Of a DNA stretch of 64,000 nt, positions 36,584 through 51,173 are shown in pieces. Position numbers and translations under genes: made by a program. A model generated the notes under the pieces. That model searched no databases. It was given only the letters and a program-made list of their open reading frames with translations, and was not told the origin of the DNA. The stretch's first letter is position 1. Each line of letters opens with the position of its first letter. Source of the stretch: Candidatus Woesearchaeota archaeon (GTDB taxonomy: Archaea; Nanobdellota; Nanobdellia; SCGC-AAA011-G17; JAGVZF01); contig JAGVZD010000003.1 in the NCBI GenBank assembly GCA_018302805.1, forward strand, positions 6,538 to 70,537, written 5' to 3'.

Positions 36584-37102
36584 ATGATTGAAGATGCCAA
36601 TTACAAGCATATTGTAAGAGTTGTCAATACAGATATTAAAGGTGAAGTTAAATTAGCTAGTGCTTTACGAAGAATTCAAGGAGTTGGTTTCACTTATTCT
36701 AATGCAGTTATCAAAACCCTTAATATGGAAGAAAATATCAAGATAGGTAATGTAAGCGATTCAGATCTTAAGAAAATAGAAGATGTAATAATTAATCCCG
36801 CTAAATATAACTTGCCATCATGGCTATTCAATAGAAGAAAGAATTTTGATTCAGGTTCAGATATTCATTTATTAACCTCAGACTTAAAACTCCAAAAGGA
36901 TAATGATATTAAAAGAATGAAAAAAATTAGATCCTACAAGGGTGTCAGACATTCTATCGGTCAACCAGTTAGAGGTCAAAGAACTAGGAGTAACTTTAGA
37001 AAAGGTTCTGCAATAGGAGTAAATAAGAAGAAATCAAAAATAGCATCTGCCAAACCAGCAATTGGACCTAAAGAAAAAACAAAGGACAAAGGTAAGAAGT
37101 AA
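36584..37102 (+). CDS. rps13: Ribosomal protein uS13
   Basis: N-terminus IVRVVNTDIKGEVKLASALRRIQGVG. Basic C-terminal tail. Confidence 0.85.
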   Translation: MIEDANYKHIVRVVNTDIKGEVKLASALRRIQGVGFTYSNAVIKTLNMEENIKIGNVSDSDLKKIEDVIINPAKYNLPSWLFNRRKNFDSGSDIHLLTSDLKLQKDNDIKRMKKIRSYKGVRHSIGQPVRGQRTRSNFRKGSAIGVNKKKSKIASAKPAIGPKEKTKDKGKK

Positions 37103-37104
37103 AA

Positions 37105-37668
37105 ATGGGAGACCCAAGAAGACTAAAAAAAACTTATGAGACGCCAGCGCATCCTTGGCAAAAAGAGAGATTAGAAACAGAAAGAATACTTTTTGAAGAA
37201 TATGGTTTAAAAAACAAAAGAGAAGTGTGGAAAGCGGGTTCTATTCTTAGAAGATACACAAGTCAAGCCAAAAAATTAATTTTGGCAACTTCAGAACAAT
37301 CCAAAATAGAAGAGAAAAAACTATTAGAAAAATTATATCGATATAATTTAACAAAAAAGGATGCAAAAATTGACGATGTCCTATCACTTAATATCAAAAA
37401 TATCTTAGACAGGAGATTGCAATCAATTATTTACAAAAAAAATCTGGCATTAACAATATATCAATCTAGACAATTTATTACACATGGTCATGTTTTAGTT
37501 AATGATCAAAAAGTAGATGTTCCATCATATTCAGTTAGTAGAGAAGAGGAAGCAAAAATCACAATAGATAAAAATTCCAAAGTTTATCAGAATATAATTA
37601 TGAAACAAAAGAAAGAACAAAAAGAAATAAAAGAAGAAAAAGAAGTTGTCCCAGAGGTACAACAATAA
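37105..37668 (+). CDS. rps4: Ribosomal protein uS4
   Basis: S4 RNA-binding domain ([18 protein letters not shown]). Length 187 aa. Confidence 0.85.
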
Positions 37669-38071
37669 AATGGATAGAAAGGAAAATATGAAGTGGGGTA
37701 TTGCATACATATATTCAAGCTATAATAATACAATTATTCATATTACCGATATTACAGGATCTGAAACTATTTCTCAGGCTTCTGGTGGCATGGTAGTTAA
37801 AGCACACAGATTAGAAGGAAGTCCGACAGCAGCTATGAGTGCAGCAAAAATTGCTGCTGAAAAAGCCTTAGAAAAAGGTATTAATGCCATTCATATCAAG
37901 ATCAGAGCACCTGGAGGCCATAATGGTCCAGTAAATACAGGTCCTGGGGCTCAAGCTGCAATTAGAGCTTTAACCAGAAGCGGATTAAGAATAGGAAACA
38001 TAGAAGAAGTTACTCCAATACCTCATGACGGATGTAGGAAAAGCCATGGAAAAAGGGGTCGTAGGGTGTAA
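37646..38071 (+). CDS. rps11: Ribosomal protein uS11
   Basis: Carries [23 protein letters not shown] and the C-terminal GxRxGN pattern of S11. Confidence 0.9.
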
Positions 38072-38093
38072 AATATACTTTAGATTATATATT

Positions 38094-39377
38094 TTATATT
38101 ATATATTCTTTAGCTTTATCCTCATCTTTTATTCCATACACATTTTCTTTAGCATAGCCTCCTTTCTTCAAAAGTCTTTCACCAATTACTGTAACTATAC
38201 CATTATCAATTAACGACTGTGAATAAGTGGGAGCTCCATTCAAATGCGATGTGATTGCTTTTCTCCCTACGTTTAACTCTATACAAAGTCCCAATATACT
38301 CTTTGGTTTTTCCAATAATGATTTTATGATAAGTTTCTTAGTTTCTTTTGCATTTCTCTTAAACCACATCCTAGACTTTCTTCTATATAATGCCTCAAAA
38401 CTTATTTGTTTGTAAGAAATCGGCAACGAGCTTATACTCTCATATAATAATTTAAAACTGGAGGTACTAAATTCTATATTCCAAAATTTTTTGAAATAAC
38501 TCCAACTACTATTACCTTCTGTAAAGTTTGTGGCTCTCTGTCTATGAGATATTTTATTTAGTTTATAACAATAACAAACTATTTCCCGTATGTCCATAAC
38601 AAATCGTTCATTATCTCCTAACTCTATCCTGATTGCATCATTCACAGTTGCTTCATCAATAATCATTGCTTTAATAAACTCATCCAATAAGACTTTATTA
38701 TCTCTTGCAAGTCTCTTAAATTTAGGAGACAAATAAACCTTCAAAGATCTAAAGTCCTCAATATCTAAAATATTTGAGGCAATATATCCAATTGTATTAG
38801 AAAAATAAAGCTGATTTTCCTTTGATATGAAATTCAAGGGTACATCTCCAAAATTCTTTAATCTGTTCTTGTGATACTCTAGTAAATCTTCTGAATATGT
38901 GTAGAAATAGCCACCTTTTTTATTTCTAAATGAACCATCAAACATTAAGTGACTGGCAACGTAGAACAAGTCTTTCATATTGAAAGGTAGCCTAGGATTT
39001 CTAATTTTTGTTCCATCTTCCTTATTACCTAAGGTTTCTATGTTAGTTTCAATTTCCTTATTTGATATGCCAACAAAACTACTTATGATTCTTAGTTCTT
39101 TAATCGTAAATCTAATTTTTCTGGTAAATAATCTAGAAGAATGTAGCTGATTGCAATCCAGAAAAATACAAAAACAATCACTTTTGTCGTAATTTACTTT
39201 TTCTAAAATCTTTTTTATAAGAATTGAATGATATTCTTCATTTAAACTTACATAAAGATCTTGAGGAAGCTGCCAGTAATGAATATCTAAGTCACCCATA
39301 TAATTTAAGCAAAAAACGCTTTTAAATATCTTACGCGCATAGATGTCCAGTGTGTCGTGTGAAATAGAGAGATTCAA
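38094..39377 (-). CDS. Putative LAGLIDADG-type homing-endonuclease-like protein
   Basis: VASHLMFDGSFRNKKGGYFYTY resembles the LAGLIDGDGSF motif followed by a beta-hairpin. A second degenerate motif is possible (KAMIIDEAT). Length 427 aa. Confidence 0.35.
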   Translation of the reverse strand: MNLSISHDTLDIYARKIFKSVFCLNYMGDLDIHYWQLPQDLYVSLNEEYHSILIKKILEKVNYDKSDCFCIFLDCNQLHSSRLFTRKIRFTIKELRIISSFVGISNKEIETNIETLGNKEDGTKIRNPRLPFNMKDLFYVASHLMFDGSFRNKKGGYFYTYSEDLLEYHKNRLKNFGDVPLNFISKENQLYFSNTIGYIASNILDIEDFRSLKVYLSPKFKRLARDNKVLLDEFIKAMIIDEATVNDAIRIELGDNERFVMDIREIVCYCYKLNKISHRQRATNFTEGNSSWSYFKKFWNIEFSTSSFKLLYESISSLPISYKQISFEALYRRKSRMWFKRNAKETKKLIIKSLLEKPKSILGLCIELNVGRKAITSHLNGAPTYSQSLIDNGIVTVIGERLLKKGGYAKENVYGIKDEDKAKEYII

Positions 39378-39423
39378 AAATATTAAAGCATAAGGAATAA
39401 ATTAAATTAATTAATTCATGTAA

Positions 39424-39795
39424 TTAGCTATTTATGCTTTTAGAAAACGCAATGCATCTTTCCCCAAGAGAATGCCAATTTAACTTTTCACTTATTACAT
39501 CTAAATCTTTTAAATCATCTATTATGAATTTTTTTTGAATAATTTGAAGTTCTAATCTTGCAAAATTTATAAAATTTCTCTTGCCTTCAGGAGCAAGTAA
39601 TAATACTTCCTCAATTCTGCCTAAACCATTATTGTATTGTGCAAGACTAAAATAACCATAAGCTATTCCTAAATAAACTTGAAGCAAATCTTTGTCCATA
39701 GAAGTTGGTTCCCGACTATTAAACCATTTCAAATATTCATCAATATGATAACTACCTATTAGGATTTTTAAGTTTCTCAATTGGTCTTCATTCAT
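39424..39795 (-). CDS. Hypothetical protein
   Basis: 123-aa ORF inside the insertion. Confidence 0.3.
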   Translation of the reverse strand: MNEDQLRNLKILIGSYHIDEYLKWFNSREPTSMDKDLLQVYLGIAYGYFSLAQYNNGLGRIEEVLLLAPEGKRNFINFARLELQIIQKKFIIDDLKDLDVISEKLNWHSLGERCIAFSKSINS

Positions 39796-39866
39796 GTTTT
39801 AGAGAAATTATCCAAATCTATTTAAAATTTACTGAATACAAATTTTATGATTATAAAAGATCAAAA

Positions 39867-40127
39867 TTGAGATTTTTGACTATGTTTAAAAAAACTTCAA
39901 TAGACTTAAAAATTATTAAAGAAAAATTAGATAGAGATTTAGTTGCTCTAATCCAATTTCCCGACAGTGAAGAAACAATTAAAGCATTGAGAATTCTTAC
40001 AAATTATAATAGGTTTGTATCAGCATATAATGATGATTGTTTTGGTCTGCAGAGCATTGAAGATTTGGAGTTGCTCTTTACTAAGAAAGTCATATACCGA
40101 ATCACTGATATTAAAAATAAATATTAA
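39867..40127 (+). CDS. Hypothetical protein
   Basis: 86-aa ORF inside the insertion. Confidence 0.3.
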   Translation: MRFLTMFKKTSIDLKIIKEKLDRDLVALIQFPDSEETIKALRILTNYNRFVSAYNDDCFGLQSIEDLELLFTKKVIYRITDIKNKY

Positions 40128-40224
40128 GATGTTTCAAGTCAAAATGAATTATTCCAAATTGTTCCAAAGACAGACTTTGTTCAATTAAGTTTATTAATTT
40201 TTCTGATTACTTTTATTTATTAAC

Positions 40225-40809
40225 ATGAAACAAACTATTAGACATATTCCTATGTATGCAGCTGCTTTACTAATACATTCATCTTTATTATTTTCATATC
40301 CAAATTCACATTCATCAGAAATCCAATTTAGTAAATTGAATACTGATTCTATTTCTGATATTGTTACCAGATATAAGAACTACCAACCTAGTCCGCACAC
40401 AAGTCCAAAAAGGCTGTATAAAGAATCAGAAAATTTCTTTCAGTGGGATTCTCCAAAAATGAATTTATCTGCATGGATGGCATCAGAAGGCAATAAATTT
40501 TTATTTAATATTTGGAGATTTAACTTCTTAGATTCAGATTCTTGTCAAAGTATATCCCAAAGAAATACATACATTACTGCTGTACCTTTAGCAGATTCAT
40601 TGGTTGTTGCCAAAATTGAGGAATATTACTGGGAGCATGATTGCGTAAGTCATTCAATAAGAAAAAATTTAGCAACAATTGGATTAACAGATCAAGGTCT
40701 TTACTTAGCTTCAGATAGTATTTATTTCCAAATTCCAAGTTCAAAATTCCCTGCAATTTACAGTGAATTTGTAAATCTAGTTTATGAAGACTATAAGAAA
40801 ATCAAGTAA
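40225..40809 (+). CDS. Hypothetical secreted protein
   Basis: N-terminal hydrophobic signal (MYAAALLIHSSLLFS). Length 194 aa. Confidence 0.35.
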   Translation: MKQTIRHIPMYAAALLIHSSLLFSYPNSHSSEIQFSKLNTDSISDIVTRYKNYQPSPHTSPKRLYKESENFFQWDSPKMNLSAWMASEGNKFLFNIWRFNFLDSDSCQSISQRNTYITAVPLADSLVVAKIEEYYWEHDCVSHSIRKNLATIGLTDQGLYLASDSIYFQIPSSKFPAIYSEFVNLVYEDYKKIK

Positions 40810-40859
40810 AAACCACACCACAACCTTTTTAAATCCTAGCCTTTACTATAAATTTCTAC

Positions 40860-41714
40860 TTGAAAATGGATATTCAAATACTTAAAGAAGAAGAGCTCTA
40901 TTTGAGATTTATAATTAAGGATGTTACTAGTTCTTACATTAATACACTTAGAAGAATGATGAATACAGAAGTACCAATTATGGCAATTGATGAAGTAAAC
41001 TTCATTGTAAATGATTCGGCTTTATATGATGAAATGATAGCTCATCGTTTAGCTCTAACACCTTTAAAAACAGACCTTCAAAGTTATGAATTAAAGGAAA
41101 AATGTACTTGCAAAGGTGTTGGATGTGCCAAATGTCAATTAGTTTTTTCACTTAAAGTTAAAGGACCAAATACTGTTTATGCATCTGATTTAAAGTCCCA
41201 GGATCCAAAAGTAATTCCAGTTCATGCAAGAATGCCTATTACAAAATTAAGTGATAATCAAGTTCTTGAAATTGAAGCAACTGCAAAACTTGGTATAGGA
41301 AAAGAACATATAAAATTCTCTCCTGGATTAATTTATTATCAAGCATATCCTGAAATAAAGTTAAAAGGTGAAATTCCAAATCCTGAAAAATATAAAGACA
41401 TTTGTCCAACCCATGTATTTGAAGTTGAAAATAATAAACTTGTGATTAAAAATTTGTTAAATTGCGATATGTGTATGGCTTGTGTAGAAGCAAATCCTGA
41501 TGATAGCATTGAAGTTAGACCAAGTAAAACAGATTTTATTTTGACTATTGAAGCCTATGGTCAATTATCAGCAAGACAAATTTTTGAAGAAGCAATTCAT
41601 ATTTTTGATGAAAAATTAGATTCTTTTAACAAAAAAATTAAAGAAGGGGAAGAAAGTAAGATTTCTAAGATTACAGAAAGGATAAAAATTAAGAAAAAAG
41701 CCCAACCTATTTAA
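40860..41714 (+). CDS. rpoD: RNA polymerase subunit Rpo3 (RpoD)
   Basis: Carries RRMMNTEVPIMAIDEV and HRLALTPL. Cys clusters CTCKGVGCAKC and CPTH...CDMCMAC (the ferredoxin-like domain of archaeal subunit D). Confidence 0.85.
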   Translation: MKMDIQILKEEELYLRFIIKDVTSSYINTLRRMMNTEVPIMAIDEVNFIVNDSALYDEMIAHRLALTPLKTDLQSYELKEKCTCKGVGCAKCQLVFSLKVKGPNTVYASDLKSQDPKVIPVHARMPITKLSDNQVLEIEATAKLGIGKEHIKFSPGLIYYQAYPEIKLKGEIPNPEKYKDICPTHVFEVENNKLVIKNLLNCDMCMACVEANPDDSIEVRPSKTDFILTIEAYGQLSARQIFEEAIHIFDEKLDSFNKKIKEGEESKISKITERIKIKKKAQPI

Positions 41715-41875: not shown

Positions 41876-42505
41876 GTGGGGGTAATTATGAAAAAAAGGT
41901 GGATAATAATCTTAGCTATAGGTATAACATTAAGTCTCACACTGATATTTTCCAAGTTTATTAATTCTCCAACAGAAGAAATCCATTATAATGGAAAGGA
42001 TATAGAAGTTAATTCTGAGACAATTGCTTCAGATGATATTGAAAAGGAATATCAACAATCAAAAAATCTTGGGTTTAGTAATTTAGAAGTATCAAAAGAT
42101 GATATAGCAAACTCCCTCATAAATGAAAAATTACTTCTTCAAAGAGCAGATAAAATCGGAATAATAGTATCTGATGAAGAGCAGGAAAATACTTTTAATA
42201 ATTTTTTAACAAATTCTAAATTATCTGAAGAAGAACTTAATACACAGCTTGAATCAACAGGATCCAATTTGGAAGAATTTAAACTTGAATTAAAAAATTA
42301 TTTAATAATATCAAAATTGATTGATAAAGAAGTTAAACCAAATGAAATTACATTAAGTGATAAAGAATTTAATGAGCTGACGCAAGATGACCTAGATCTT
42401 CAAAATGTTAAATTCCTAATTGAAGATGAACTAATAATCCAGAAAAAACAAGAAGCTATTGATAATTATATTGAAAAATTAAGAAACGGAGCTGATATTA
42501 ATTAA
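41876..42505 (+). CDS. Secreted or membrane-anchored protein (SurA-N-like helical region)
   Basis: N-terminal TM (WIIILAIGITLSLTLIF). Length 209 aa. Acidic. Confidence 0.35.
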   Translation: MGVIMKKRWIIILAIGITLSLTLIFSKFINSPTEEIHYNGKDIEVNSETIASDDIEKEYQQSKNLGFSNLEVSKDDIANSLINEKLLLQRADKIGIIVSDEEQENTFNNFLTNSKLSEEELNTQLESTGSNLEEFKLELKNYLIISKLIDKEVKPNEITLSDKEFNELTQDDLDLQNVKFLIEDELIIQKKQEAIDNYIEKLRNGADIN

Positions 42506-42743
42506 ACTTTTACCTATTAAAAGAGTTGAATTTATACTTATCTTGATATTACTATTTCTCAACTTTGCTGTTTCTTTTATTCCGCTACAAAAACATTTCG
42601 TTAAGCATTGCATGCATAGAAAACCAGCCACTCGAAGGGCCAAAAATGGTCGGAGAGACAGGCTTCTAAGTTATGAACGTCACAAACATTATAGGAAATC
42701 TAACCACGTCACGACTGGTATCGGTATTAGTGGGGCCGGCCTG

Positions 42744-45700
42744 ATGAATAGGAGAAATGGGATGAGGAATATTTGGATGTTGGGAGTGATATTTGTAGCT
42801 TTATTAGGGTTTTCCCAAGTTGTATGGGCATTAGAACCTTGGGAAATGAAAAAAGAACATATTGGGGTTATTATAGATTCAGGACATGCATTATATGGAA
42901 CCAATGATCCAGATAGTGCTAATGCTAATAGTCAAAACTTTCTTAGATATGATACAAAGAACGCAAAAGGAAAAACTAGAGGAAGATCTTGTATTGATCC
43001 TTCATTAATACCGTCTAATGACATTGATGACACTTGCGGTAAATACCTAAGATTTAATAATTTAAATAGGGTTGTAACTAGAATACAAAATGACTATGTG
43101 GAACCAGAAGGAATGGTTTTTTTTAGCCGTGGTTTACAAGACATACTAAAAACCAATAATATTGCATCTGAAAATACCAGAGATCTTTCTACCCCATTAG
43201 ATGTAATGTTGGGAAATCCTTTCAGAATAGATGCTGTAACATTTAAATTCACTACTAATGAAGATGATGAAACAATCGTTCCGCTATTTATCTATAATCC
43301 CAATACAGTCCTTAGTATTCCACAAATAAATTTACAAGTAACTGTTACTATTACACCAAGTAGAGATGCAATGTCGATTACAGTTTCTCAGCAGAATTCA
43401 GGTGTTATTTATCAGCAAAATATTAATCAAAATACTCCTCAAAACGAGTTTAATAGAGTATTAGCAATCTCAGTCCCTAACCTTCCCTTTCTAAATATTC
43501 AAAGTCCCCCTGGAGTTGAGATCGATAGATTAGAGTCAATAGTAGAACCGATTAATAATATTCACATAAACTATGAAATAGAAACTGATGATTACTGGTT
43601 AGGCGTCAGACGTTCGAATATCGAAAATGATTGGAGACACGGAGCAGTAACATATTTATGTGAAATGCGGGATCCTTCGTTCTGCCCTTTATCGTCATCG
43701 AACCCAACAGACCCCAGTGATGAAAATTTAATAAGAGAATTATTTGGTGAGGAGGTACAGGACAATGATAGAGAAAAGGATTGGATATTGATAAGTTACC
43801 ATTCGAATTCGGGGGGGAATTCTGATACAAGAGGTTTATTTTCATCACGCCCTAATTTTAAGAGAGATGTTCAAATTGGTTCAAGTGATCAAGTCATAAG
43901 TTGTCATAATTTTTTAGAACCTCAAAATAATATCAACGGTGACCCAAGTCGTAAAAATGATCTATTAACACTTTCAAAAGCACGTTTTACCCAATTTTTA
44001 GCTGATGCCATTGTATCAGAAATCCAGAGAAATAACATAAATTGGCCACAACGTGGAAGAATTATTGATGAAGCTGTCTGCGATAAGGAAGGAGCAGTCA
44101 TCTTATCAGGTAGTATACCTTCTTCAATTATTGAACTTACTTTTCATGATAACATCAATAGCCTTAACACGTTACTAGCATATAATAAAATTAATGAAAA
44201 GAATATTGTAGCTCAAGGAACATTCGAAGGCATCAAAAAATTCTTCAATGCTAATGTGGAAAGTACTGATGATCAAGGTCAAAATTGGGATGTTTTCAAT
44301 ATGATCTCTGATTACCCTAATATTGATGATGTTTGGGCTAAAGGTACCGGGTTTCCAAAAAATCATAATATCAGACTTAATGTTGTGCGACACAAGAATT
44401 ATAATACCGATTATACAAGGGGGGAAGATATAAAAAAAATAGCAGTTAATTCTCAAGAAAATGCTGCTAAAATAGGAATTATAACTGACAATTTTGGGAA
44501 TTTCGGTCCTGTAAAAGTCTGGACTCCAACAATGGAAGGTGAATTTGATATCGTTGCTAAAATATATGATTATGAAAAATTTCAGTGGGTTGATGCTGTA
44601 GACAGTATGGAACTAGGTTCGGACGGCAAAAGCAAACCGGGTTTTGAAGTTATGAAATGCGGTAGTATTTGCAGTTATATCTATAGTTCTGATGAATCAA
44701 GTGCTCTAAAAACAAACTTTTTCACAAATGAAAAAGTTTATGCTGCATTCGCACTTGAGAATGATGGCAATGAAGAAGTCCAAGCAAAAATATTTGTTAT
44801 AAAAAATGAAGTAGCTGAGGCTGGTCCTTCATGGCAAAATTTAGCAGACCAAAGTTCTGACGGTCCTGAAGAAATAACAATACCCGCAGGTGTTGGACAA
44901 GTTGAAAGCGGTAAACAGGTTGTATGGTTACCCCCTCTAACTGAAGGCGTGTACAGACTCGTTGTTGACTTAAATAACAACGGATTGTTTGATTCTGCTG
45001 ACAGAATGGCTGCTGATCCTTTTACAGTACGTAATATAATTACACAGCTTGATGCGGATGTAGATCCAGAAGGCAATGTTCATGTTATTGGAATTGCAGA
45101 AAACACAAATTCCAACCCACCACCAATAATTGCAACAAGATTAATGTATGCAAGAATTCCTCATGACTCTAATTATAAGATAGATCTCGAACATCCAGAA
45201 TTATTTGATTGGAGTGTAGCAAAAGAAGTAAAATTTACAGAAATCCCAAGAACACCCGCAAGAATTTCAAATCCTAAGATTGCTGTTGATATGAATGGCG
45301 AACCGTATATTATTTGGGAAAGGCAAACTGCAGATAATAAATGGCTTCAATGGACAAAGTTAACTAAGGATGGTTTAATAGATACCCAATTCTTTTTTGT
45401 TATCAAAAAACAGCAATCTGAAGGTACTCTGGGAGAACCACACCAACTTTTTGAAAATGTTTTCCTTGCTGAAGGTGGATTACTTAATATATCTTCATTT
45501 AGGAGTTCAATAAACGTAAGTGAATCAGTAGCTGTTGCTCCAATAATATTTTATAGATCCCAACCATTTGTGGAATATGATCTAAGAGAGCCAGATATTG
45601 CAATAGATCCACAAGATAATAGGCCAATTATAACAGCTATCATAAATGCAAAAGCTCCATCAACTTTATTTATGCAAAAGATTCTTCCAATTCTATCACT

Positions 45701-48700
45701 AGGTATTAATCCAAACTTTTTCATATACCCATCAGGCACATTTTCTCAAGGTTTTAACCTAATTAATGAAGCAATAATCCCACCTCTATATTTTGCTGAA
45801 AGTGTACAGGTAGCAAAACTTATTGGAACTGAACTTGGTGTTTTTTCATTTGGTTGGCCAAGTGATTATACTCCTGGTGGTGTGAGATATGGACAAGATG
45901 TAGCAGTATTTACCGATACCATGAATGATATTGCAGACCTTGTTAATGATATGGCAATTCCTAGTGAACGTTCCGATCACTGGAAGTGGAGACATTTGGA
46001 TAGTGCAAGTTTACGTACTAATTTTGATATGTTTTCAAATCCACAAATAGAAGTGGATACTCTTAGTAATCTACATGTTATTTATCACAAAGGTTCATCG
46101 ATATTTGTAGGTGCTACAGGAGATGTTTGGGATCCTGATAATCCAAACCACCTCAACTTTGCACCAATTTTAAGAGAAATGGATGTCTTTGTCAATAATT
46201 CTTTTAGCGTAGTCATGTATAAAAAAGTTCCAATTACATCACAGGATCTACCATCAAATTTTAACATGATTAAAATTCCTCAAGCAGGATCAGATCCAAT
46301 TCAAGTGTCCCTAGAAGCATCTCAGGTTAAACCAAATTCTATTGACTTGGCAATTGATTCTGATGGAGAAAGCCACATTGTTTGGCAATCAAATAATAAA
46401 TTGAAATATACAAAGAGTCCAGATTTTGAAGATAATAATGTATCCCAAATTTTGTCTGCAGAATTAGGAATTTCAAAAATTATTATAGATACAAAAAATA
46501 ATCCAATAGTTTTATGGAATGATAAATTAGGTCTTGAAGAGAAATTATTATTAAAAAAAGTTCTAACCATCAATAGAACTGCAAGTTTTAGTCATACAGA
46601 AGAGATTGCAAGTTCTACTAATATCAGAAATCCCCTGTTAGCTATAAATTCTATTTCCAATAATAACACTGGGGCTAATAGAATATATTCTCTTTGGATA
46701 AATTCAAATGATGTTGGTTCTAGAGTATTACTCAAAAGGACAATGCCACATACAACTATTTTACTCATTTTAGATGGTTTTAATAGCTCTGTATTCTATG
46801 ATAATCTAAATTCTATGGATATTTTGAAAGATCTCATCGAAAATAATCCAACAGTTAATGGATCTGCTGTTATTCCAAGTCCTTTCCAAACATTTTCATC
46901 ACAAGCTTCTCTTATAACAGCATTGCAACCTGAAAATCATGGTATTCTGGGGGATAATTTCACAAGAGGCGATGGTCAGAATATATCATATATTCCTGAT
47001 AACTCACATGATGTTAATCAAGATCTCAATGTAAGTACAATATATGATTTTCTCAGCACGCACAATAGGAGTAAAGCAGTAATCGCAAGTATAATTACAA
47101 AAGGGGTGGGAGGTCAATTAAACGATAAAATCATACCTCCAACGACAATAGATTGGAATTCCGGTTCAAATAATGCAGAAGATTCTATTAATTCTTATTT
47201 TAATATTTTGAATACCAATGATCAAAATACCTCAAATGATCCAGCAGAATTAATAACTGTTTATGTGTTGAAAAATACACACAATCAGATATCTGATTAT
47301 GCTTCTTATGCAGCAAATGTCGATGATACTATAGGCCTTCTAATAGATAAACTCCAAAACATGAAGATGTTTAACGATACTGTTTTGATTATTACCTCAG
47401 ACCACGGTGAAAGTGGCAATATAAACGATACATTAGTACCTATTATAATTACTGGTCCTGGACTTAATTATTTCAGTGCGCAAGGACAAAGTTTTGAAAT
47501 AGAAGAAAATATCGATATAACAGATATCGGAACAACAACAACATTTTTCGTAGCTGGTAAAAGTTTAGTTGATTCAATGGTTGGCGTTGACGGTCAAAAC
47601 TTATTTGATCCTCAACTCTCCTTTACTGCTGAATCTCCTGTTAGATTGCACTTATACGATGAAGAAGGTAATCATGTAGGCCCCAAAGCAAATAATATCG
47701 AGACTGAAATCCCTCTTTCCTATTACACAGAAGATCCAGAAACTGATGCCAAGGAAATTATTTTACTTCAAGCTCCAGAAAAATATAGATTCGAACTGGA
47801 ATCATATGCTGAAGGGCCAGTTCATTTATCATTAAGGCATTCTAAATTAGGACAAAAAATTTTAATAGAATATCCTGAATTTATTATTGTTAATCATTCA
47901 AGAGGTAAAATCGATGCCATAAATGATGATTTTATCTTGGTATTAGACAAAGATAATAACGGTATTTTTGAAGAGACAATTGAACCTTCAACATCATTAC
48001 AAATTAATCAGAGGAACAATTCAGCAACAATAGATATTCTTAATCTCGAATTAAGAGAACCTATTGAAGTTGATGTTGTAGATAATACTAACGCAAAAAT
48101 AATTTTAGAAGCCTATGAAGAAATTTCCAATGAAAATATACAGATTGAAAAATTAAACTTCATAGAATCAAATGGTTTAATTACTGACAATGTGTTTGGA
48201 GTAGATTTTGCAATTAACATTTCTATGAGTTCTAATATATTAGCTAATACTAGTAGTGAATTAGCAATAGTAATACCAGAAGATATAATTAAAAATAAAG
48301 GTATAGCTAAATATTCTTTGTCCATATTTGAACTTGTCTCAAATGAAAGTATTAATCTTAATTTTAGCGAAGAATCTGAGGCAATAATAATTGTAGATGG
48401 AAATGATGTTTATGTTGATACTTTTGCATTTTTTGATGACAAAACAAACATTTTAACTACAGGAATTTCCGGTCCAGGAACTTTCGTAATACTTGCAACA
48501 GATAAAATACCATCAATTACTGACATTATTATAAATCCAGCAAAAACTTCAATTAGCACTTCAAATATTTCTGTTACATCTTCTGTAATAGACAATCAAG
48601 CTGTATCAAATGTTAGTATAATGTTCAATGGCAATACAATTGAAATGCAACATCTTGGTGGCTCCCAGTATACAGCAACACTTATTGGTCCAACCCAATC

Positions 48701-51173
48701 AGGAAAATATCCTATTTTAATTAGTGCCGTAGATAATAATGGTAACCTTGCTGAAAAAACAATTTTCTATGAACTTGATGATGTAGCACCAAATATAACA
48801 ATAAAATATCCTGGGGATAATAGCTTCTTAATAAGAAATACCTTTGACTTTACATATTTTGTTGATGAATTATCAAATCAAACATTTATATTAGATGGAT
48901 TAGAAACAAATACAAATATTACATCACCTTATAGAACAACTAAAATTAGACTAAATAATTTGTCAGCAGGTCCGCATGAGTTGTCAATAAGAGCAATTGA
49001 TGATGTAGCTAACGAAGCTCTTAAAACTATAAATATTAATGTAGACAGCCATAATACACTAGTTTCAAATCTTCAACTACCTCTCGCATCAAAACCAGGT
49101 TTAGTTATTCCGATTAGTTTCAAAGTGGAAAATACATTATCTTTTGATGAGTCAGAAGTCTTAGCAGAATTGGTTGTAGATAATACAGTAGTTTCTACTC
49201 AAAACCTCTCTTTAGGAGGAAATGAAATAAAGCAATTAAGCTTTGAATATATCTCAATTGCTGGCAGGCATAATATAACAATAAGAACAGTTCCAATTGT
49301 AGGAGAAAGATTCTTAGATGATAATCGTTTAAGTGCAGAATTACTTGTCACAAATAAAATACCTTTACTTCTTGTTGAAGATGATGGTATACAAGAAACT
49401 AATGCATTCATAAATGCAATAGCCACAGCAAATGTTGGTGGCATGCCTGGATTTGATTATGTTCTATGGGATATTGAAGAAAAAGGAATTCCTTCTACAA
49501 ATATACTACAGCAATTAAGGGGGGTTATTTGGTACACAGGAACTTCTGAAGAAACATTAAGTGCTCAAGAAAGGAAGAATATTGAAGAATATGTTGAAAG
49601 TGGTGGTAACTTGTTCATCTCAGGAAGTAAAATTGGTAGTGATATTGGATCAACAGATATCTATAATAATGTATTTAAATCGAAATTTGTAAGTCAATCT
49701 ACTCAAAATATTGTAGAAGGTAAACTATTTACAATTGGTCAAGGCTTCTTATTTGAACTAAATCAGGCAGGAGAAGTTATAACTCCAAGCAGTGGAACAA
49801 AAACAGCATTTGTATATACAGGAGACGGAGCTGCAGGTCTCACATATAATGATGAGATCAAACATATTACTTATTTATCATTTGCATTTGAAAGTATGCC
49901 TACTTTTGATGAGCAAAGAAATTTAATGAGTAAAGTACTTGATTTCTTTGAAATTGATGTAGCTGCCCCAATAATTTCAGATATAAAACCATTATCAGGA
50001 ACAAAATACCCAATTAACACATCAAACATATCAGTAAGCATTAAAACAGATGAAATCGCAAATTGTAGACAAAGCATTACACCAGTATTATTTGAATCAA
50101 TGAATCCATTTGATGTTACAAACTCAAAAACACATTCCACTTCAGTTCAAGATATACAAAATGGTGTTAATACAACCATTAGAATTGCTTGTAAGGACTC
50201 TGATGGAAATATTGGTATTGCTGAATCTCAAATCTTTATATGGAATAGAACATTTAATGCGCCTGTAATTCAACCTATTGATGATTTAACAATTCTTGAA
50301 AATGGGACATTACAACTTCAAGTCCAAGTTTCAGATCCTGAAAATGATGATTTTCAAGTTATACTTGAAGACTTTGAAAGATTAGGAATAACTAGAATTG
50401 CAAACCACTTCACATTTGATAATACAAGTACTTTTAATTTAGAATCAAATTTCGAAGATGCAGGACAGTATTTCTTAAGAATTAAAGTTATAGATTTATA
50501 TAATATAAGCTCAGAAGAATTTAAATTGACAATTGAAAATGTAGATAGACCTCCAATAATAGAGCAAATAAATCCTCAATTCCTAATGGAAGGTAATTAT
50601 TATAATCTAACAGTTATTGCATCTGATCCTGATAATGATCAAATAACATTCTTTGACAGTACTGAATTATTCAATATTAATCAATATCTTGGAAAGATTG
50701 CATTTACACCAAAGCAAAGTCAAATTGGTATTTATACTGTAAACATTACTGCACGAAGTTTACTTTATGAAATTGTGCAGGAGGTTCAATTCATTGTAGT
50801 AGATAATGAAAATAGATCAGCTCTTCCAGTAATAGAATTTATCCCCCCAAAAACAGCTTTTGTAGATCATCCTTTTGAACTTCAAGTAATTGCAAATGAT
50901 TCAGATAGTAGTCAACTTATCTATTTTGATAACTCAGATTTCTTTGATATAACTCCAACAGGATTCATAAATTTCACCCCAACAGAATCACAACTAGGTA
51001 GTCATGTATTTACAATTCAAGTTACAGATGGCACATCATTAGTACATAGACAAATTAACATTTTAATCACTAGACCTCCCTTTGTTAGATTATTACCCAT
51101 TGGAAATATAACTGCTATTGCAGGAGAATTAATTACAATCAGACCAAATATAACATTTGTAAACGGAACATAA
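42744..51173 (+). CDS. Giant surface protein 1, multidomain (2,810 aa from this ATG)
   Basis: The ORF is uninterrupted to 51173. The ORF-track TTG start at 42543 is unlikely, and the ATG at 42744 yields MNRRNG...LGVIFVALLGFSQVVWA, a signal anchor. Domains seen: an alkaline-phosphatase-superfamily core (LILDGFNSS...ITSDHGESGN), Ig/CARDB-like domains, a GATase1/ThuA-like domain (LLLVEDDG...GGNLFISGS) and three cadherin-like repeats at the C-terminus. Confidence 0.8.
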   Translation: MNRRNGMRNIWMLGVIFVALLGFSQVVWALEPWEMKKEHIGVIIDSGHALYGTNDPDSANANSQNFLRYDTKNAKGKTRGRSCIDPSLIPSNDIDDTCGKYLRFNNLNRVVTRIQNDYVEPEGMVFFSRGLQDILKTNNIASENTRDLSTPLDVMLGNPFRIDAVTFKFTTNEDDETIVPLFIYNPNTVLSIPQINLQVTVTITPSRDAMSITVSQQNSGVIYQQNINQNTPQNEFNRVLAISVPNLPFLNIQSPPGVEIDRLESIVEPINNIHINYEIETDDYWLGVRRSNIENDWRHGAVTYLCEMRDPSFCPLSSSNPTDPSDENLIRELFGEEVQDNDREKDWILISYHSNSGGNSDTRGLFSSRPNFKRDVQIGSSDQVISCHNFLEPQNNINGDPSRKNDLLTLSKARFTQFLADAIVSEIQRNNINWPQRGRIIDEAVCDKEGAVILSGSIPSSIIELTFHDNINSLNTLLAYNKINEKNIVAQGTFEGIKKFFNANVESTDDQGQNWDVFNMISDYPNIDDVWAKGTGFPKNHNIRLNVVRHKNYNTDYTRGEDIKKIAVNSQENAAKIGIITDNFGNFGPVKVWTPTMEGEFDIVAKIYDYEKFQWVDAVDSMELGSDGKSKPGFEVMKCGSICSYIYSSDESSALKTNFFTNEKVYAAFALENDGNEEVQAKIFVIKNEVAEAGPSWQNLADQSSDGPEEITIPAGVGQVESGKQVVWLPPLTEGVYRLVVDLNNNGLFDSADRMAADPFTVRNIITQLDADVDPEGNVHVIGIAENTNSNPPPIIATRLMYARIPHDSNYKIDLEHPELFDWSVAKEVKFTEIPRTPARISNPKIAVDMNGEPYIIWERQTADNKWLQWTKLTKDGLIDTQFFFVIKKQQSEGTLGEPHQLFENVFLAEGGLLNISSFRSSINVSESVAVAPIIFYRSQPFVEYDLREPDIAIDPQDNRPIITAIINAKAPSTLFMQKILPILSLGINPNFFIYPSGTFSQGFNLINEAIIPPLYFAESVQVAKLIGTELGVFSFGWPSDYTPGGVRYGQDVAVFTDTMNDIADLVNDMAIPSERSDHWKWRHLDSASLRTNFDMFSNPQIEVDTLSNLHVIYHKGSSIFVGATGDVWDPDNPNHLNFAPILREMDVFVNNSFSVVMYKKVPITSQDLPSNFNMIKIPQAGSDPIQVSLEASQVKPNSIDLAIDSDGESHIVWQSNNKLKYTKSPDFEDNNVSQILSAELGISKIIIDTKNNPIVLWNDKLGLEEKLLLKKVLTINRTASFSHTEEIASSTNIRNPLLAINSISNNNTGANRIYSLWINSNDVGSRVLLKRTMPHTTILLILDGFNSSVFYDNLNSMDILKDLIENNPTVNGSAVIPSPFQTFSSQASLITALQPENHGILGDNFTRGDGQNISYIPDNSHDVNQDLNVSTIYDFLSTHNRSKAVIASIITKGVGGQLNDKIIPPTTIDWNSGSNNAEDSINSYFNILNTNDQNTSNDPAELITVYVLKNTHNQISDYASYAANVDDTIGLLIDKLQNMKMFNDTVLIITSDHGESGNINDTLVPIIITGPGLNYFSAQGQSFEIEENIDITDIGTTTTFFVAGKSLVDSMVGVDGQNLFDPQLSFTAESPVRLHLYDEEGNHVGPKANNIETEIPLSYYTEDPETDAKEIILLQAPEKYRFELESYAEGPVHLSLRHSKLGQKILIEYPEFIIVNHSRGKIDAINDDFILVLDKDNNGIFEETIEPSTSLQINQRNNSATIDILNLELREPIEVDVVDNTNAKIILEAYEEISNENIQIEKLNFIESNGLITDNVFGVDFAINISMSSNILANTSSELAIVIPEDIIKNKGIAKYSLSIFELVSNESINLNFSEESEAIIIVDGNDVYVDTFAFFDDKTNILTTGISGPGTFVILATDKIPSITDIIINPAKTSISTSNISVTSSVIDNQAVSNVSIMFNGNTIEMQHLGGSQYTATLIGPTQSGKYPILISAVDNNGNLAEKTIFYELDDVAPNITIKYPGDNSFLIRNTFDFTYFVDELSNQTFILDGLETNTNITSPYRTTKIRLNNLSAGPHELSIRAIDDVANEALKTININVDSHNTLVSNLQLPLASKPGLVIPISFKVENTLSFDESEVLAELVVDNTVVSTQNLSLGGNEIKQLSFEYISIAGRHNITIRTVPIVGERFLDDNRLSAELLVTNKIPLLLVEDDGIQETNAFINAIATANVGGMPGFDYVLWDIEEKGIPSTNILQQLRGVIWYTGTSEETLSAQERKNIEEYVESGGNLFISGSKIGSDIGSTDIYNNVFKSKFVSQSTQNIVEGKLFTIGQGFLFELNQAGEVITPSSGTKTAFVYTGDGAAGLTYNDEIKHITYLSFAFESMPTFDEQRNLMSKVLDFFEIDVAAPIISDIKPLSGTKYPINTSNISVSIKTDEIANCRQSITPVLFESMNPFDVTNSKTHSTSVQDIQNGVNTTIRIACKDSDGNIGIAESQIFIWNRTFNAPVIQPIDDLTILENGTLQLQVQVSDPENDDFQVILEDFERLGITRIANHFTFDNTSTFNLESNFEDAGQYFLRIKVIDLYNISSEEFKLTIENVDRPPIIEQINPQFLMEGNYYNLTVIASDPDNDQITFFDSTELFNINQYLGKIAFTPKQSQIGIYTVNITARSLLYEIVQEVQFIVVDNENRSALPVIEFIPPKTAFVDHPFELQVIANDSDSSQLIYFDNSDFFDITPTGFINFTPTESQLGSHVFTIQVTDGTSLVHRQINILITRPPFVRLLPIGNITAIAGELITIRPNITFVNGT

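What the first reader, a model, noticed from the sequence alone, without database searches (positions are those of the whole stretch)
38072..40850. About 2.8-kb insertion splitting the conserved rps13-rps4-rps11-rpoD operon, carrying a LAGLIDADG-like ORF
In archaea, rpoD (Rpo3) normally follows rps11 directly. Here four ORFs intervene (427 and 123 aa on the reverse strand, 86 and 194 aa on the forward strand). The 427-aa protein has VASHLMFDGSFRNKKGGYFYTY, which resembles a LAGLIDADG motif with its following beta-hairpin. It also has a possible second degenerate motif and a basic C-terminus. This looks like a selfish-element insertion, a homing-endonuclease-like gene plus cargo, into a core operon. 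rpoD has presumably acquired its own promoter (TATA-like TTTAAATCC...CTATAAATTTC at about 40825-40855).
Basis: partly seen in the sequence, partly recalled or inferred. Interest (0 to 1): 0.55.

Follow-up and report, generated by a model that had tools for sequence, protein, structure and literature searches.

The report
Homing-endonuclease gene splitting rps11–rpoD operon
A stand-alone LAGLIDADG homing-endonuclease-like gene sits backwards between the ribosomal protein S11 gene and the RNA polymerase subunit D gene of a Woesearchaeota genome, at a site that two unrelated nuclease gene families occupy patchily across DPANN archaea, which points to selfish DNA spreading between these tiny archaea.

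Summary
rps13-rps4-rps11 and rpoD are separated by 2.8 kb carrying four ORFs.

**What ORF X is.** The 427-aa ORF really starts at M27, giving 401 aa at 38094-39299 on the minus strand. I call it X. Its AlphaFold model is confident (pLDDT 92.8). It shows a double-motif LAGLIDADG core, with both catalytic acidic residues conserved, plus a C-terminal ArsR-type winged helix. No Pfam LAGLIDADG model detects it.

**Where X occurs.** X homologues (30-61% identity) always lie at this same spot in Woese-, Pace-, Nano- and Aenigmarchaeota. They are antisense and convergent with rps11. Occupancy is patchy:
- Most loci chosen by S11 similarity have rpoD abutting rps11.
- The window's closest relatives lack X.
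- At least 7-10 gains or losses are needed on the host tree.
- One near-identical genome pair carries X in one member and an unrelated HTH plus restriction-endonuclease-fold gene (Y) in the other.
- Frameshifted and remnant X copies exist.

**Recoding of rps11.** In X or Y loci the last six rps11 codons use CGN arginine codons 65% of the time, against a 16% background.

**Best reading (about 0.6).** X is a free-standing homing endonuclease gene that targets the rps11/rpoD junction. The other three ORFs are lineage-specific filler, not conserved cargo. Cleavage itself is untested.

The parts
37670..38071 (+). rps11 (ribosomal protein S11), last gene of the rps13-rps4-rps11 block. X or Y genes insert directly after its stop codon.
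   Evidence: Pfam Ribosomal_S11, E 4e-42. The start at ATG 37670 is inferred from the length match with L024/L025.
38051..38071 (+). Last six codons plus stop of rps11 (AAA AGG GGT CGT AGG GTG TAA). This is the tract that is recoded in loci carrying X or Y, and the proposed half of the homing or immunity site.
   Evidence: CGN Arg codons are 65% here in X/Y loci, against 16% in the rest of the same genes and 17% in X-less loci (Fisher p = 9e-15 and 6e-21). Identity between the window and L024/L025 falls to 63% in the last 30 nt, against 82-83% upstream.
38072..38093 (.). A 22-nt AT-rich spacer between the convergent stop codons of rps11 and X.
   Evidence: Sequence read directly. A similar AT-rich spacer occurs in L001, L014 and L020.
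38094..39299 (-). Gene X, 401 aa. Layout: N-terminal helical domain (about aa 1-105), double-motif LAGLIDADG core (about aa 106-290; motif 1 ends at D121-G122, motif 2 at D215-E216), linker helix, and C-terminal ArsR-type winged HTH (about aa 317-400).
   Evidence: AF2 model with pLDDT 92.8 and pTM 0.89. Foldseek top hits are LAGLIDADG endonucleases: TliVMA intein, PI-SceI, I-Tsp061I, and 62 viral LAGLIDADG hits. D121, G122 and D215 are invariant and E216 is always acidic across 38 homologues. HTH_5 is hit in 30 of 38 members.
39318..39332 (-). Putative X promoter. The TATA-like ATATTTAAAA lies about 20-30 nt upstream of the X ATG on the minus strand.
   Evidence: Read from the sequence. This is inference from the archaeal TATA consensus and is not tested.
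39424..39795 (-). 123-aa ORF, lineage-specific, function unknown.
   Evidence: No Pfam, PHROG, NCBIfam or PADLOC hit. No tblastn match in the X-, Y- or S11-selected loci searched.
39867..40127 (+). 86-aa ORF (TTG start; alternative ATG at 39882), lineage-specific, possibly not a gene.
   Evidence: No significant family hit. No match in related loci.
40225..40809 (+). 194-aa ORF with a hydrophobic N-terminus. It is a real but rare orphan gene.
   Evidence: It is identical to 'hypothetical protein J4471_00955 [Candidatus Woesearchaeota archaeon]'. Only one other homologue was found, at 57% identity. It is absent from all other X loci.
40817..40865 (+). rpoD promoter region (BRE/TATA, AACCTTTTTAAAT, at about 40822-40834) and short leader. 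It is conserved with the X-less sister loci.
   Evidence: 91% identity to L024 over 44 nt and 78% to L025. Comparable (A)AAGSTTTAAAAAC boxes precede rpoD in other split loci.
40866..41714 (+). rpoD (RNA polymerase subunit D/Rpo3), separated from rps11 by the insertion.
   Evidence: Pfam RNA_pol_A_bac (E 3.6e-19) and RNA_pol_L (E 7.7e-12). The start is fixed by alignment with L024/L025.

Best explanation
Gene X (38094-39299, minus strand) is a free-standing, site-specific LAGLIDADG homing endonuclease gene. Its home is the junction between rps11 and rpoD in DPANN archaea.

**Proposed mechanism.**
1. X is transcribed from its own TATA promoter, antisense to the ribosomal-protein operon.
2. The protein uses its LAGLIDADG saddle plus the extra N-terminal and winged-helix domains to recognise the uninterrupted junction. 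That junction is the purine-rich end of rps11 abutting the rpoD start, consensus AGAGGnAGGAGAGTATAA(A)ATGGAA.
3. X cuts an X-less allele that enters the cell.
4. Double-strand-break repair from the X-bearing allele copies X into the junction, together with the last 30-60 nt of rps11 and whatever lies between X and rpoD.
5. X-bearing alleles are immune because the site is split and the last six rps11 codons are synonymously recoded from AGR to CGN.
6. rpoD is then expressed from its own promoter.

An unrelated gene family, Y (HTH repeats plus a restriction-endonuclease-like domain), uses the same site and can be exchanged with X. The 123-, 86- and 194-aa ORFs are lineage-specific DNA that accumulated in the X-to-rpoD gap.

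**Shown:** the fold, the conserved catalytic residues, strict site and orientation specificity, patchy distribution, X/Y replacement, decayed copies, and recoding of the rps11 tail.

**Inferred:** endonuclease activity, the identity of the target, and homing itself.
For: **Fold and active site.**
- High-confidence AF2 model.
- The best PDB matches are LAGLIDADG enzymes: 7qss, 1dfa, 2dch, 1lws.
- There are 62 viral LAGLIDADG matches.
- The two LAGLIDADG helices end at D121-G122 and D215-E216. These acidic residues are invariant or always acidic in 38 homologues.

**Site specificity.** In all 21 loci found through X, X is antisense, with its stop within tens of nt of the rps11 stop. This holds from Woesearchaeota to Aenigmarchaeota.

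**Patchiness.**
- Of 80 loci chosen only by S11 similarity, nearly all have rpoD directly after rps11. Only 3 carry X or an X relic.
- The closest relatives, L024 and L025 (S11 89%, RpoD 76-77% identity), lack X.
- At least 9 gain or loss events are needed on a 74-locus host tree, 7-10 in bootstraps.
- X identity (49-69%) is nearly uncorrelated with host-marker identity (39-83%) within Woese- and Pace-type loci, rho 0.23. For example, L010/L017 have 83% host identity but 61% X identity.

**Replacement.** L001 and L057 are about 91% identical in flanking DNA, yet carry X and the unrelated Y respectively at the same position. They share only the promoter and the first 16 codons, and that N-terminal motif belongs to the Y family. 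Y has a restriction-endonuclease-like fold and is also always antisense next to rps11.

**Decay.** L028 has an X remnant of about 42 aa. L020/L088 carry a frameshifted X that is seen on 13 contigs.

**Target recoding.**
- CGN Arg codons make up 65% in the last six rps11 codons of X/Y loci, against 16% elsewhere in the same loci and 17% in X-less loci.
- The tails stay AGR in X-less loci where rpoD is not adjacent.
- Divergence spikes in the last 30-60 nt of rps11 in both natural plus/minus pairs.

**Not a transposon.** There are no terminal or direct repeats.

**Precedent.** Free-standing phage endonucleases sit between conserved genes, co-convert flanks, and are replaced by unrelated endonuclease genes at the same locus (PMC2988022).
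Against: - No cleavage activity or target site has been demonstrated.
- X copies are mostly intact and well conserved (26 invariant columns). They carry two extra DNA-binding domains, which would also fit a host-beneficial regulator.
- Broad clades of the X tree roughly match host clades, for example Aenigmarchaeota X against the rest, and a shared Woese subclade. Much inheritance is therefore vertical.
- The trees are neighbour-joining on about 780 residues. X-bearing loci were partly ascertained through X itself.
- No case of near-identical X in clearly different hosts was found.
- X is absent from viral contigs. How DNA would move between DPANN cells is unknown.
- The window's own rps11 tail is only weakly recoded: 1 CGN among its 3 Arg codons.
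- The rps11-tail recoding could reflect a constraint of convergent transcription rather than immunity.
- No Pfam LAGLIDADG model matches X.
Confidence: 0.6

Rival explanations
1. X is a domesticated LAGLIDADG-derived DNA-binding regulator, analogous to bacterial WhiA. It binds the rps11/X/rpoD intergenic DNA through its winged helix and degenerate endonuclease saddle, and controls its own promoter, the divergent rpoD promoter, or both. Its patchy distribution reflects repeated loss in reduced genomes. Y is a non-homologous functional replacement.
For: - The architecture is LAGLIDADG core plus C-terminal HTH.
- Position and orientation are strictly conserved next to rpoD. In minimal loci a 200-380-nt divergent intergenic region lies between X and rpoD.
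- The ORFs are intact at about 50% identity with many invariant residues.
- Distant homologues sit beside other housekeeping genes, rtcB and cdc6.
Against: - Both catalytic acidic residues are retained in every member. By my recollection of the WhiA structure paper, WhiA has lost them.
- A useful regulator of an essential polymerase subunit would not be expected to be absent from most close relatives.
- Nor would it be expected to decay to a 42-aa stub, or to be swapped for a restriction-endonuclease-fold protein.
- In many loci 1-6.5 kb of unrelated genes separate X from rpoD.
- Localised recoding of the rps11 tail is not predicted by this reading.
Confidence: 0.2
2. X is an ancient insertion that was fixed once in an early DPANN ancestor and has since been inherited only vertically and lost many times. 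It is now a non-mobile relic, active or not. The window simply retains it while its sisters deleted it.
For: - The deepest split in the X tree (Aenigmarchaeota against the rest) mirrors the host split, and a Woese subclade is shared by both trees.
- The window and the X-less L024/L025 share the same separate rpoD promoter. This suggests the operon was already split in their common ancestor.
- Remnant and frameshifted copies document loss.
Against: - It requires at least 7-10 independent clean losses. Most of these would have to restore a 0-5-nt rps11-rpoD junction with translational coupling, which is implausible by deletion.
- X divergence does not scale with host divergence.
- The L001 X carries a Y-derived N-terminus, showing that X entered a site already occupied by Y.
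- In L001/L057 the exchanged segment includes the rps11 tail.
Confidence: 0.12
3. The whole 2.8 kb is one composite mobile element (integrative element or transposon) that brought X plus three cargo genes.
For: All four ORFs are absent from the closest relatives, L024 and L025. Other mobile DNA does land in the X-to-rpoD gap in another lineage, namely an IS transposase.
Against: - There are no terminal inverted or flanking direct repeats, no integrase or transposase, and no tRNA nearby.
- The three small ORFs never co-occur with X elsewhere.
- In L004, L007, L011, L018 and L019, X is alone between rps11 and rpoD.
- There is no compositional break.
Confidence: 0.05

Closest known systems
Free-standing homing endonuclease genes of T-even phages (seg and mob genes; 'intronless homing'; SegH/Hef replacing mobC/mobE)
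   Same: - It is a stand-alone endonuclease gene in the gap between conserved genes.
- Presence or absence varies among close relatives.
- Divergence or co-conversion is concentrated in the flanking gene next to the insertion.
- Unrelated endonuclease families alternate at one locus.
- Neighbouring genes need their own promoters.

Sources: PMC2988022, compared.
   Different: - The host is a cellular archaeal chromosome, not a phage.
- The nuclease is LAGLIDADG, or PD-(D/E)xK for Y, rather than GIY-YIG or HNH.
- It is always antisense with its own promoter.
- It splits a core ribosomal-protein/RNA-polymerase operon.
- Cleavage and homing are not demonstrated.
Archaeal intron- and intein-encoded LAGLIDADG endonucleases (I-Tsp061I, I-DmoI, PI-SceI, TliVMA intein endonuclease domain)
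   Same: It has the double-motif monomeric LAGLIDADG fold, with acidic residues at the ends of both LAGLIDADG helices. These enzymes are the best structural matches.
   Different: - Sequence identity is only 10-15%.
- No Pfam model recognises X.
- It is not inside an intron or an intein, and there is no Hint domain.
- It has an extra N-terminal helical domain and a C-terminal winged HTH.
WhiA (DUF199), the bacterial LAGLIDADG-derived regulator with a C-terminal HTH
   Same: The domain logic is the same: a LAGLIDADG scaffold followed by a C-terminal helix-turn-helix. Both are chromosomal, stand-alone genes.
   Different: - No WhiA Pfam domain is hit, and WhiA is not among the top 50 PDB fold matches.
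- Catalytic acidic residues are conserved in X. By my recollection, WhiA lacks them.
- The HTH is ArsR-type and winged.
- X is patchily distributed rather than universally conserved in its clade.
Yeast HO endonuclease (F-SceII)
   Same: It is a free-standing LAGLIDADG enzyme with an added C-terminal DNA-binding domain that acts on one chromosomal site. This comparison rests on my own knowledge.
   Different: HO derives from an intein, retains Hint remnants and uses zinc fingers. It is domesticated for mating-type switching. Nothing suggests such a host function here.

Membership tests
LAGLIDADG homing endonuclease superfamily | Alpha-beta-beta-alpha-beta-beta-alpha core, duplicated in a monomer (pseudo-dimer). 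| tested here: met
   The DSSP pattern is H108-120/E122-125/E129-133/H137-150/E155-158/E163-166/H168-177, repeated from H202-216. Foldseek top hits are all LAGLIDADG enzymes.
LAGLIDADG homing endonuclease superfamily | Two LAGLIDADG helices, each ending in a conserved acidic residue followed by a small residue (metal-binding D/E-G). | tested here: met
   Motif 1 is ...SHLMFD121G122. Motif 2 is ...IID215E216(G/A). D121, G122 and D215 are invariant and position 216 is always D or E in 38 sequences. Placement at the helix C-termini comes from the model. No superposition on a solved active site was possible.
LAGLIDADG homing endonuclease superfamily | Match to a curated sequence model (Pfam LAGLIDADG_1, _2, _3 or _WhiA). 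| tested here: not met
   None of the 38 X members hits any LAGLIDADG model at E <= 0.01. Only the distant homologue P0057 reaches LAGLIDADG_3 at 22.2 bits, against a cut-off of 22.5. A profile search of PDB sequences finds only the HTH.
LAGLIDADG homing endonuclease superfamily | Site-specific cleavage of a long (about 18-22 bp) target. | not testable with these tools
   This needs biochemistry. The predicted substrate is the uninterrupted rps11-stop/rpoD-start junction.
Free-standing homing endonuclease gene (intronless homing) | Located between conserved genes at one fixed site, with presence or absence varying among close relatives. | tested here: met
   The site and orientation are the same in 21 X loci. 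X is absent in the closest relatives and in most of 80 S11-selected loci. At least 7-10 events are needed on the host tree.
Free-standing homing endonuclease gene (intronless homing) | Sequence differences or co-conversion in the flanking target gene that distinguish endonuclease-plus from endonuclease-minus alleles. | tested here: met
   CGN recoding is confined to the last six rps11 codons in X/Y loci. Divergence spikes in the last 30-60 nt in the WIN/L024/L025 and L001/L057 comparisons. Reading this as immunity is an inference.
Free-standing homing endonuclease gene (intronless homing) | Super-Mendelian transfer into endonuclease-less alleles after cleavage. | not testable with these tools
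   No culture or genetic system exists. The indirect support is the X/Y exchange between genomes that are about 91% identical.
WhiA-like domesticated LAGLIDADG regulators | WhiA-specific domains (WhiA_N, LAGLIDADG_WhiA, HTH_WhiA) and loss of the catalytic acidic residues. | tested here: not met
   There are no WhiA Pfam hits. The acidic residues are conserved.
Intein | Endonuclease embedded in-frame in a host protein between Hint splicing blocks. | tested here: not met
   X is a separate antisense ORF with its own start and stop, lying between two genes. No Hint or intein Pfam hit was found.
IS element / transposon / integrative element | Terminal inverted repeats, target-site duplication, and a transposase or integrase. 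| tested here: not met
   No flanking repeats were found at 38072 or 40816-40850. No transposase or integrase domains were found. The window has no tRNA.
PD-(D/E)xK (restriction-endonuclease-like) nucleases, for the competing gene Y only | Restriction-endonuclease-like alpha/beta core with conserved D ... E-x-K-type residues. | tested here: inconclusive
   The AF2 model has pLDDT 88. The best PDB matches are BstEII, Can2/Card1, BsoBI, XisH and Mus81, but with marginal E-values of 1e-3 to 0.3. D284, E298 and T300 are invariant in 'DF...IEVTK'. No Pfam hit was found.

The most novel reading that the evidence does not exclude
The rps11/rpoD junction of DPANN archaea is a chromosomal homing site contested by two unrelated endonuclease gene families: LAGLIDADG-wHTH (X) and HTH plus restriction-endonuclease-fold (Y). 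Occupied alleles are protected by synonymous recoding of the last six codons of rps11.

This would be the first free-standing homing system described in an archaeal chromosome that splits a core ribosomal-protein/RNA-polymerase operon. It would imply frequent homologous DNA exchange between cells of these episymbiotic archaea across Woese-, Pace- and Aenigmarchaeota.
Probability: 0.4. Interest if true: 0.75.

Novelty: new variant of a known kind. Interest (0 to 1): 0.62.

Why it matters
- **Unusual location.** Homing endonucleases in archaea are known mainly from rRNA introns and inteins. A stand-alone one that lives antisense inside one of the most conserved archaeal operons would be a new setting for them. 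That the site is shared with an unrelated nuclease family, and carries a recoded target in an essential ribosomal protein gene, adds to this.
- **Marker for DNA exchange.** It would give a sequence-level marker for DNA exchange and recombination among uncultured DPANN archaea, which is otherwise hard to observe.
- **New enzyme family.** It identifies an unannotated protein family of roughly 50 clusters, all labelled 'hypothetical'. Pfam does not detect its LAGLIDADG core. It may supply new long-target endonucleases with an accessory winged-helix domain.
- **Promoter evolution.** It shows how rpoD acquires an independent promoter once the operon is broken.

Tried and rejected
- **Sequence-model searches.** Pfam, PHROGs, NCBIfam and PADLOC searches of X and the three small ORFs found nothing beyond a weak HTH_5 match.
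- **PDB sequence search.** A profile search of PDB sequences found only the HTH.
- **Spurious hit.** The 8-stretch hit to the 2955-aa protein P0069 turned out to be PARP14 RRM repeats. I dismissed it as spurious.
- **My first reading.** After five look-ups I read X as a conserved, vertically inherited syntenic gene. I abandoned this once an unbiased S11-based scan showed that most relatives, including the closest ones, lack it.
- **Viral origin.** No X relatives were found in viral contigs.
- **Transposon-type insertion.** No boundary repeats were found.
- **Homology between X and Y.** None exists beyond the recombinant first 16 residues.
- **X relics in the sisters.** None were found in the L024/L025 spacers, and there is no second X copy in the window.
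- **Identical X in different hosts.** A search through P0027 found only one population, which carries an IS between X and rpoD.
- **SD-relaxation explanation.** I considered that the rps11-tail recoding reflects relaxed Shine-Dalgarno or coupling constraint once rpoD is moved away. I judged this unlikely for two reasons: X-less loci with no adjacent rpoD keep AGR codons, and relaxation would give the 16% background rather than 65%.


Full report
**1. The observation**

ORF listing and Pfam confirm rps13 (36584-37102), rps4 (37105-37668), rps11 (to 38071) and rpoD (to 41714). Four ORFs lie between them:
- 427 aa, minus strand, 38094-39377;
- 123 aa, minus strand, 39424-39795;
- 86 aa, plus strand, 39867-40127;
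- 194 aa, plus strand, 40225-40809.

All homologues of the large ORF, and a 100%-identical database protein, start at its M27. The gene, which I call X, is therefore 38094-39299, 401 aa. The rpoD start is ATG 40866 by alignment with relatives. The genome is a low-GC Woesearchaeota MAG: the 194-aa ORF is identical to NCBI 'hypothetical protein J4471_00955 [Candidatus Woesearchaeota archaeon]'. There is no compositional break across the region.

**2. What X is**

Sequence libraries say almost nothing. There is only a weak ArsR-type HTH_5 match at the C-terminus. That match is significant in 30 of 38 homologues. No LAGLIDADG model matches any of the 38.

An alignment of 38 homologues has 26 invariant columns (A1). 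They include H117, F120, D121 and G122 in 'YVASHLMFDGS'. They also include E207 and D215, with an always-acidic 216, in 'DEIIKALIIDEG', about 95 residues later.

AlphaFold2 on this alignment gives pLDDT 92.8 and pTM 0.89. Helix 108-120 ends at D121-G122 and is followed by a beta-hairpin. Helix 202-216 ends at D215-E216 and is followed by another. The alpha-beta-beta-alpha-beta-beta-alpha unit occurs twice.

Foldseek against the PDB returns LAGLIDADG enzymes as its best hits: the TliVMA intein endonuclease domain, PI-SceI, and the archaeal intron enzyme I-Tsp061I (TM 0.57 on the target). ArsR/SmtB/MarR winged helices match the C-terminal domain. The viral structure library gives 62 LAGLIDADG or intein matches at E <= 1e-3.

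X consists of an N-terminal helical domain, a double-motif LAGLIDADG core with both catalytic acidic residues retained, and a winged HTH.

**3. Where X occurs**

X has about 50 database clusters of roughly 400 aa, at 30-61% identity. In every locus recovered, X sits in the same place. These loci are five look-ups plus 13 genome contigs from Woesearchaeota, Nanoarchaeota, Pacearchaeota and Aenigmatarchaeota MAGs. X is antisense and convergent with rps11, with the stops tens of nt apart, and rpoD lies upstream of X on the other strand.

In L004, L007, L011, L018 and L019, X is the only gene between rps11 and rpoD. Elsewhere 1-6.5 kb of unrelated genes lie between X and rpoD, including an IS transposase in one lineage. 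The window's 123-, 86- and 194-aa ORFs have no counterpart in any of these loci. The 194-aa ORF has one 57% homologue on a 1-kb contig.

At this stage X looked like an old syntenic gene. More distant homologues (25-30% identity) sit elsewhere, next to rtcB or cdc6.

**4. The unbiased test**

I scanned metagenome contigs with the window's S11 protein alone. This returned 80 loci with S11 64-89% identical. Nearly all have rpoD directly after rps11. In 46 of 59 X-less loci the rpoD ATG is within -4 to +3 nt of the rps11 stop.

Only three carry X or a piece of it. The two closest relatives of the window are L024 and L025, with S11 at 89% and RpoD at 76-77% identity. The best X-bearing locus has RpoD at only 56%. 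L024 and L025 have no X; their spacers are 428 and 170 nt.

DNA homology between the window and these sisters stops at the rps11 stop. It resumes 44-50 nt before the rpoD ATG, at a shared TATA box, AACCTTTTTAAAT. The window-specific DNA is therefore 38072-40816.

On a neighbour-joining tree of S13+S4+S11+RpoD for 74 loci, X-bearing loci are scattered among X-less ones. Fitch parsimony needs at least 9 changes, 7-10 over 50 bootstraps. Nine X-bearing Woese-type loci need 7.

Within Woese- plus Pace-type loci, X identity (49-69%) is almost independent of host-marker identity (39-83%), with Spearman rho 0.23. L010/L017 are 83% identical in host markers but 61% in X. L011/L012 are 43% and 64%. The deepest X split (Aenigmarchaeota against the rest) does follow the hosts, so inheritance is partly vertical.

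**5. Replacement and decay**

L001 carries X. L057 does not. They are about 91% identical in flanking DNA. Between the rps11 stop and rpoD, L057 carries an unrelated 385-aa ORF, Y, in exactly X's position and orientation. The two loci share only 115 nt (94% identical), covering the promoter and the first 16 codons.

That N-terminal peptide (…DLRTINE…) matches the consensus N-terminus of the Y family. X therefore entered a site that Y had occupied. X and Y are not homologous.

Y forms its own family of 9 clusters. It is again always antisense and abuts rps11. It has two HTH-like repeats and a C-terminal alpha/beta domain. The best PDB matches for that domain are restriction-endonuclease-fold nucleases: BstEII, BsoBI, Can2/Card1, XisH and Mus81. 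The E-values are marginal.

X also decays:
- L028 (S11 88% identical to the window) keeps only the last 42 or so residues of X, next to rps11.
- L020/L088 carry a frameshift before the winged helix, and this form is seen on 13 contigs.

**6. A signature in rps11**

Listing the junctions showed that X- or Y-bearing loci spell the terminal ...[KR]RGRRV* of S11 with CGN arginine codons, while X-less loci use AGR. The counts are:

| Loci | Last six rps11 codons | Rest of S11/S4/S13/RpoD |
|---|---|---|
| X/Y-bearing | 54/83 CGN (65%) | 16% CGN |
| X-less | 17% CGN | 17% CGN |

Fisher p is 9e-15 between the two groups, and 6e-21 for tail against body within X/Y loci.

The effect is confined to codons -6 to -2; arginines further upstream show none. 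X-less loci in which rpoD is not adjacent (L030, L053, L054, L086) keep AGR. The effect is therefore tied to X or Y, not to loss of coupling with rpoD.

Divergence is concentrated at the 3' end of rps11 in both natural plus/minus pairs:
- Window against L024/L025: 63% identity in the last 30 nt, 82-83% upstream.
- L001 against L057: 57-73% identity in the last 60 nt, about 93% upstream.

This is what target-site immunity or co-conversion by a homing endonuclease would produce. A constraint from convergent transcription cannot be excluded. These statistics treat loci as independent, but the 7-10 separate events make lineage effects an unlikely sole cause.

**7. Interpretation**

The anatomy and distribution match free-standing homing endonuclease genes as known from T-even phages. 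Those are intergenic between conserved genes, vary among relatives, co-convert flanks, and are replaced by unrelated endonuclease genes at the same locus (PMC2988022).

I therefore read X as a free-standing LAGLIDADG homing endonuclease gene whose home is the rps11/rpoD junction. Y is a competitor for the same site. The three small ORFs are lineage-specific filler in a gap that tolerates insertions.

The absence of terminal repeats, transposase and tRNA argues against a transposon or integrative element. PADLOC finds no defence-system link. The main rival is a WhiA-like domesticated regulator of rpoD. Four things count against it: retention of the catalytic residues, absence of X from most relatives, decay, and replacement by a nuclease-fold protein. 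It is not excluded. Endonuclease activity, the target, and the route of DNA transfer between DPANN cells remain untested.

**8. Novelty**

The kind of element, a free-standing homing endonuclease gene, is known. The following appear undescribed in the literature I could search:
- this family, which Pfam does not recognise as LAGLIDADG and databases label 'hypothetical';
- its LAGLIDADG plus winged-helix architecture;
- its home inside the archaeal rps13-rps4-rps11-rpoD operon;
- the second nuclease family at the same site;
- the recoded rps11 tail.

I rate it a new variant of a known kind, of moderate to high interest.

Noticed in passing
Spacer after the rps11 stop in L002, L006, L007, L010, L017 (X loci) and L046, L048, L104 (Y loci). 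Absent from the window (38072-38093).: A short motif, (T/A)AGTAGT(A/T)A(C), lies between the convergent stop codons in 8 of 22 X/Y loci and in 0 of 70 other loci. The background expectation is about 0.004 per window. It is shared by both unrelated gene families and by distant lineages. Its function is unknown; it could be a terminator, a processing signal, or part of the element end.
   Followed up: partly
L057:2680-3837(-); also L046, L048, L104-L107; proteins P0125-P0133: A second, unrelated gene family (Y, about 380 aa) occupies exactly the same antisense position after rps11. It has two HTH-like repeats plus a restriction-endonuclease-like C-terminal domain with invariant D284, E298 and T300.
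   Followed up: partly
L111-L118 (P0027 lineage): An IS-type DDE transposase gene (DDE_Tnp_1/DDE_5, 400 aa) lies between X and rpoD. The X-to-rpoD gap therefore also collects other mobile DNA.
   Followed up: no
L022:1638-4311 and L109:1292-4957: Distant X homologues (25-30% identity, LAGLIDADG_3 borderline plus HTH_5) sit next to other housekeeping genes. P0057 lies directly upstream of an rtcB that is split into 119- and 357-aa ORFs. P0064 lies between a YchF-like GTPase and cdc6/orc1. The wider family may have diversified onto other conserved sites.
   Followed up: no
window 41876-51173 and beyond: rpoD is not followed by the usual L18e-L13-S9-rpoN genes. It is followed by a SurA-like 209-aa ORF and a 2876-aa ORF. 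No ORF of 120 aa or more that lies wholly inside the window is listed beyond 51173, so a further long ORF may run off its end. The operon is broken on this side as well.
   Followed up: no
window 39385-39440: A 28-nt imperfect palindrome (75% complementary, adjacent arms) overlaps the stop of the 123-aa ORF, just upstream of the putative X promoter. It could be a terminator or an operator.
   Followed up: no
L025:2830-3255(-): The X-less sister locus carries a 141-aa ORF with an HNH-like 'HHVDGNKQNN' motif about 1 kb downstream of rpoD. It may be another small endonuclease gene.
   Followed up: no
L020/L088 (protein P0043): X is frameshifted at about residue 345, so the winged-helix part is in another frame. 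This truncated form is recorded on 13 contigs, so it is unlikely to be an assembly error.
   Followed up: partly
window 1-64000: ARAGORN finds no tRNA gene in the whole 64-kb window.
   Followed up: no
L024:2602-2940(+), L033:6397-6609(+), L054:5415-5753(+), L086:6454-6780(+): Several X-less relatives have different small orphan ORFs (70-112 aa) inserted between rps11 and the next gene. The junction is a general hotspot for small insertions in these lineages.
   Followed up: no
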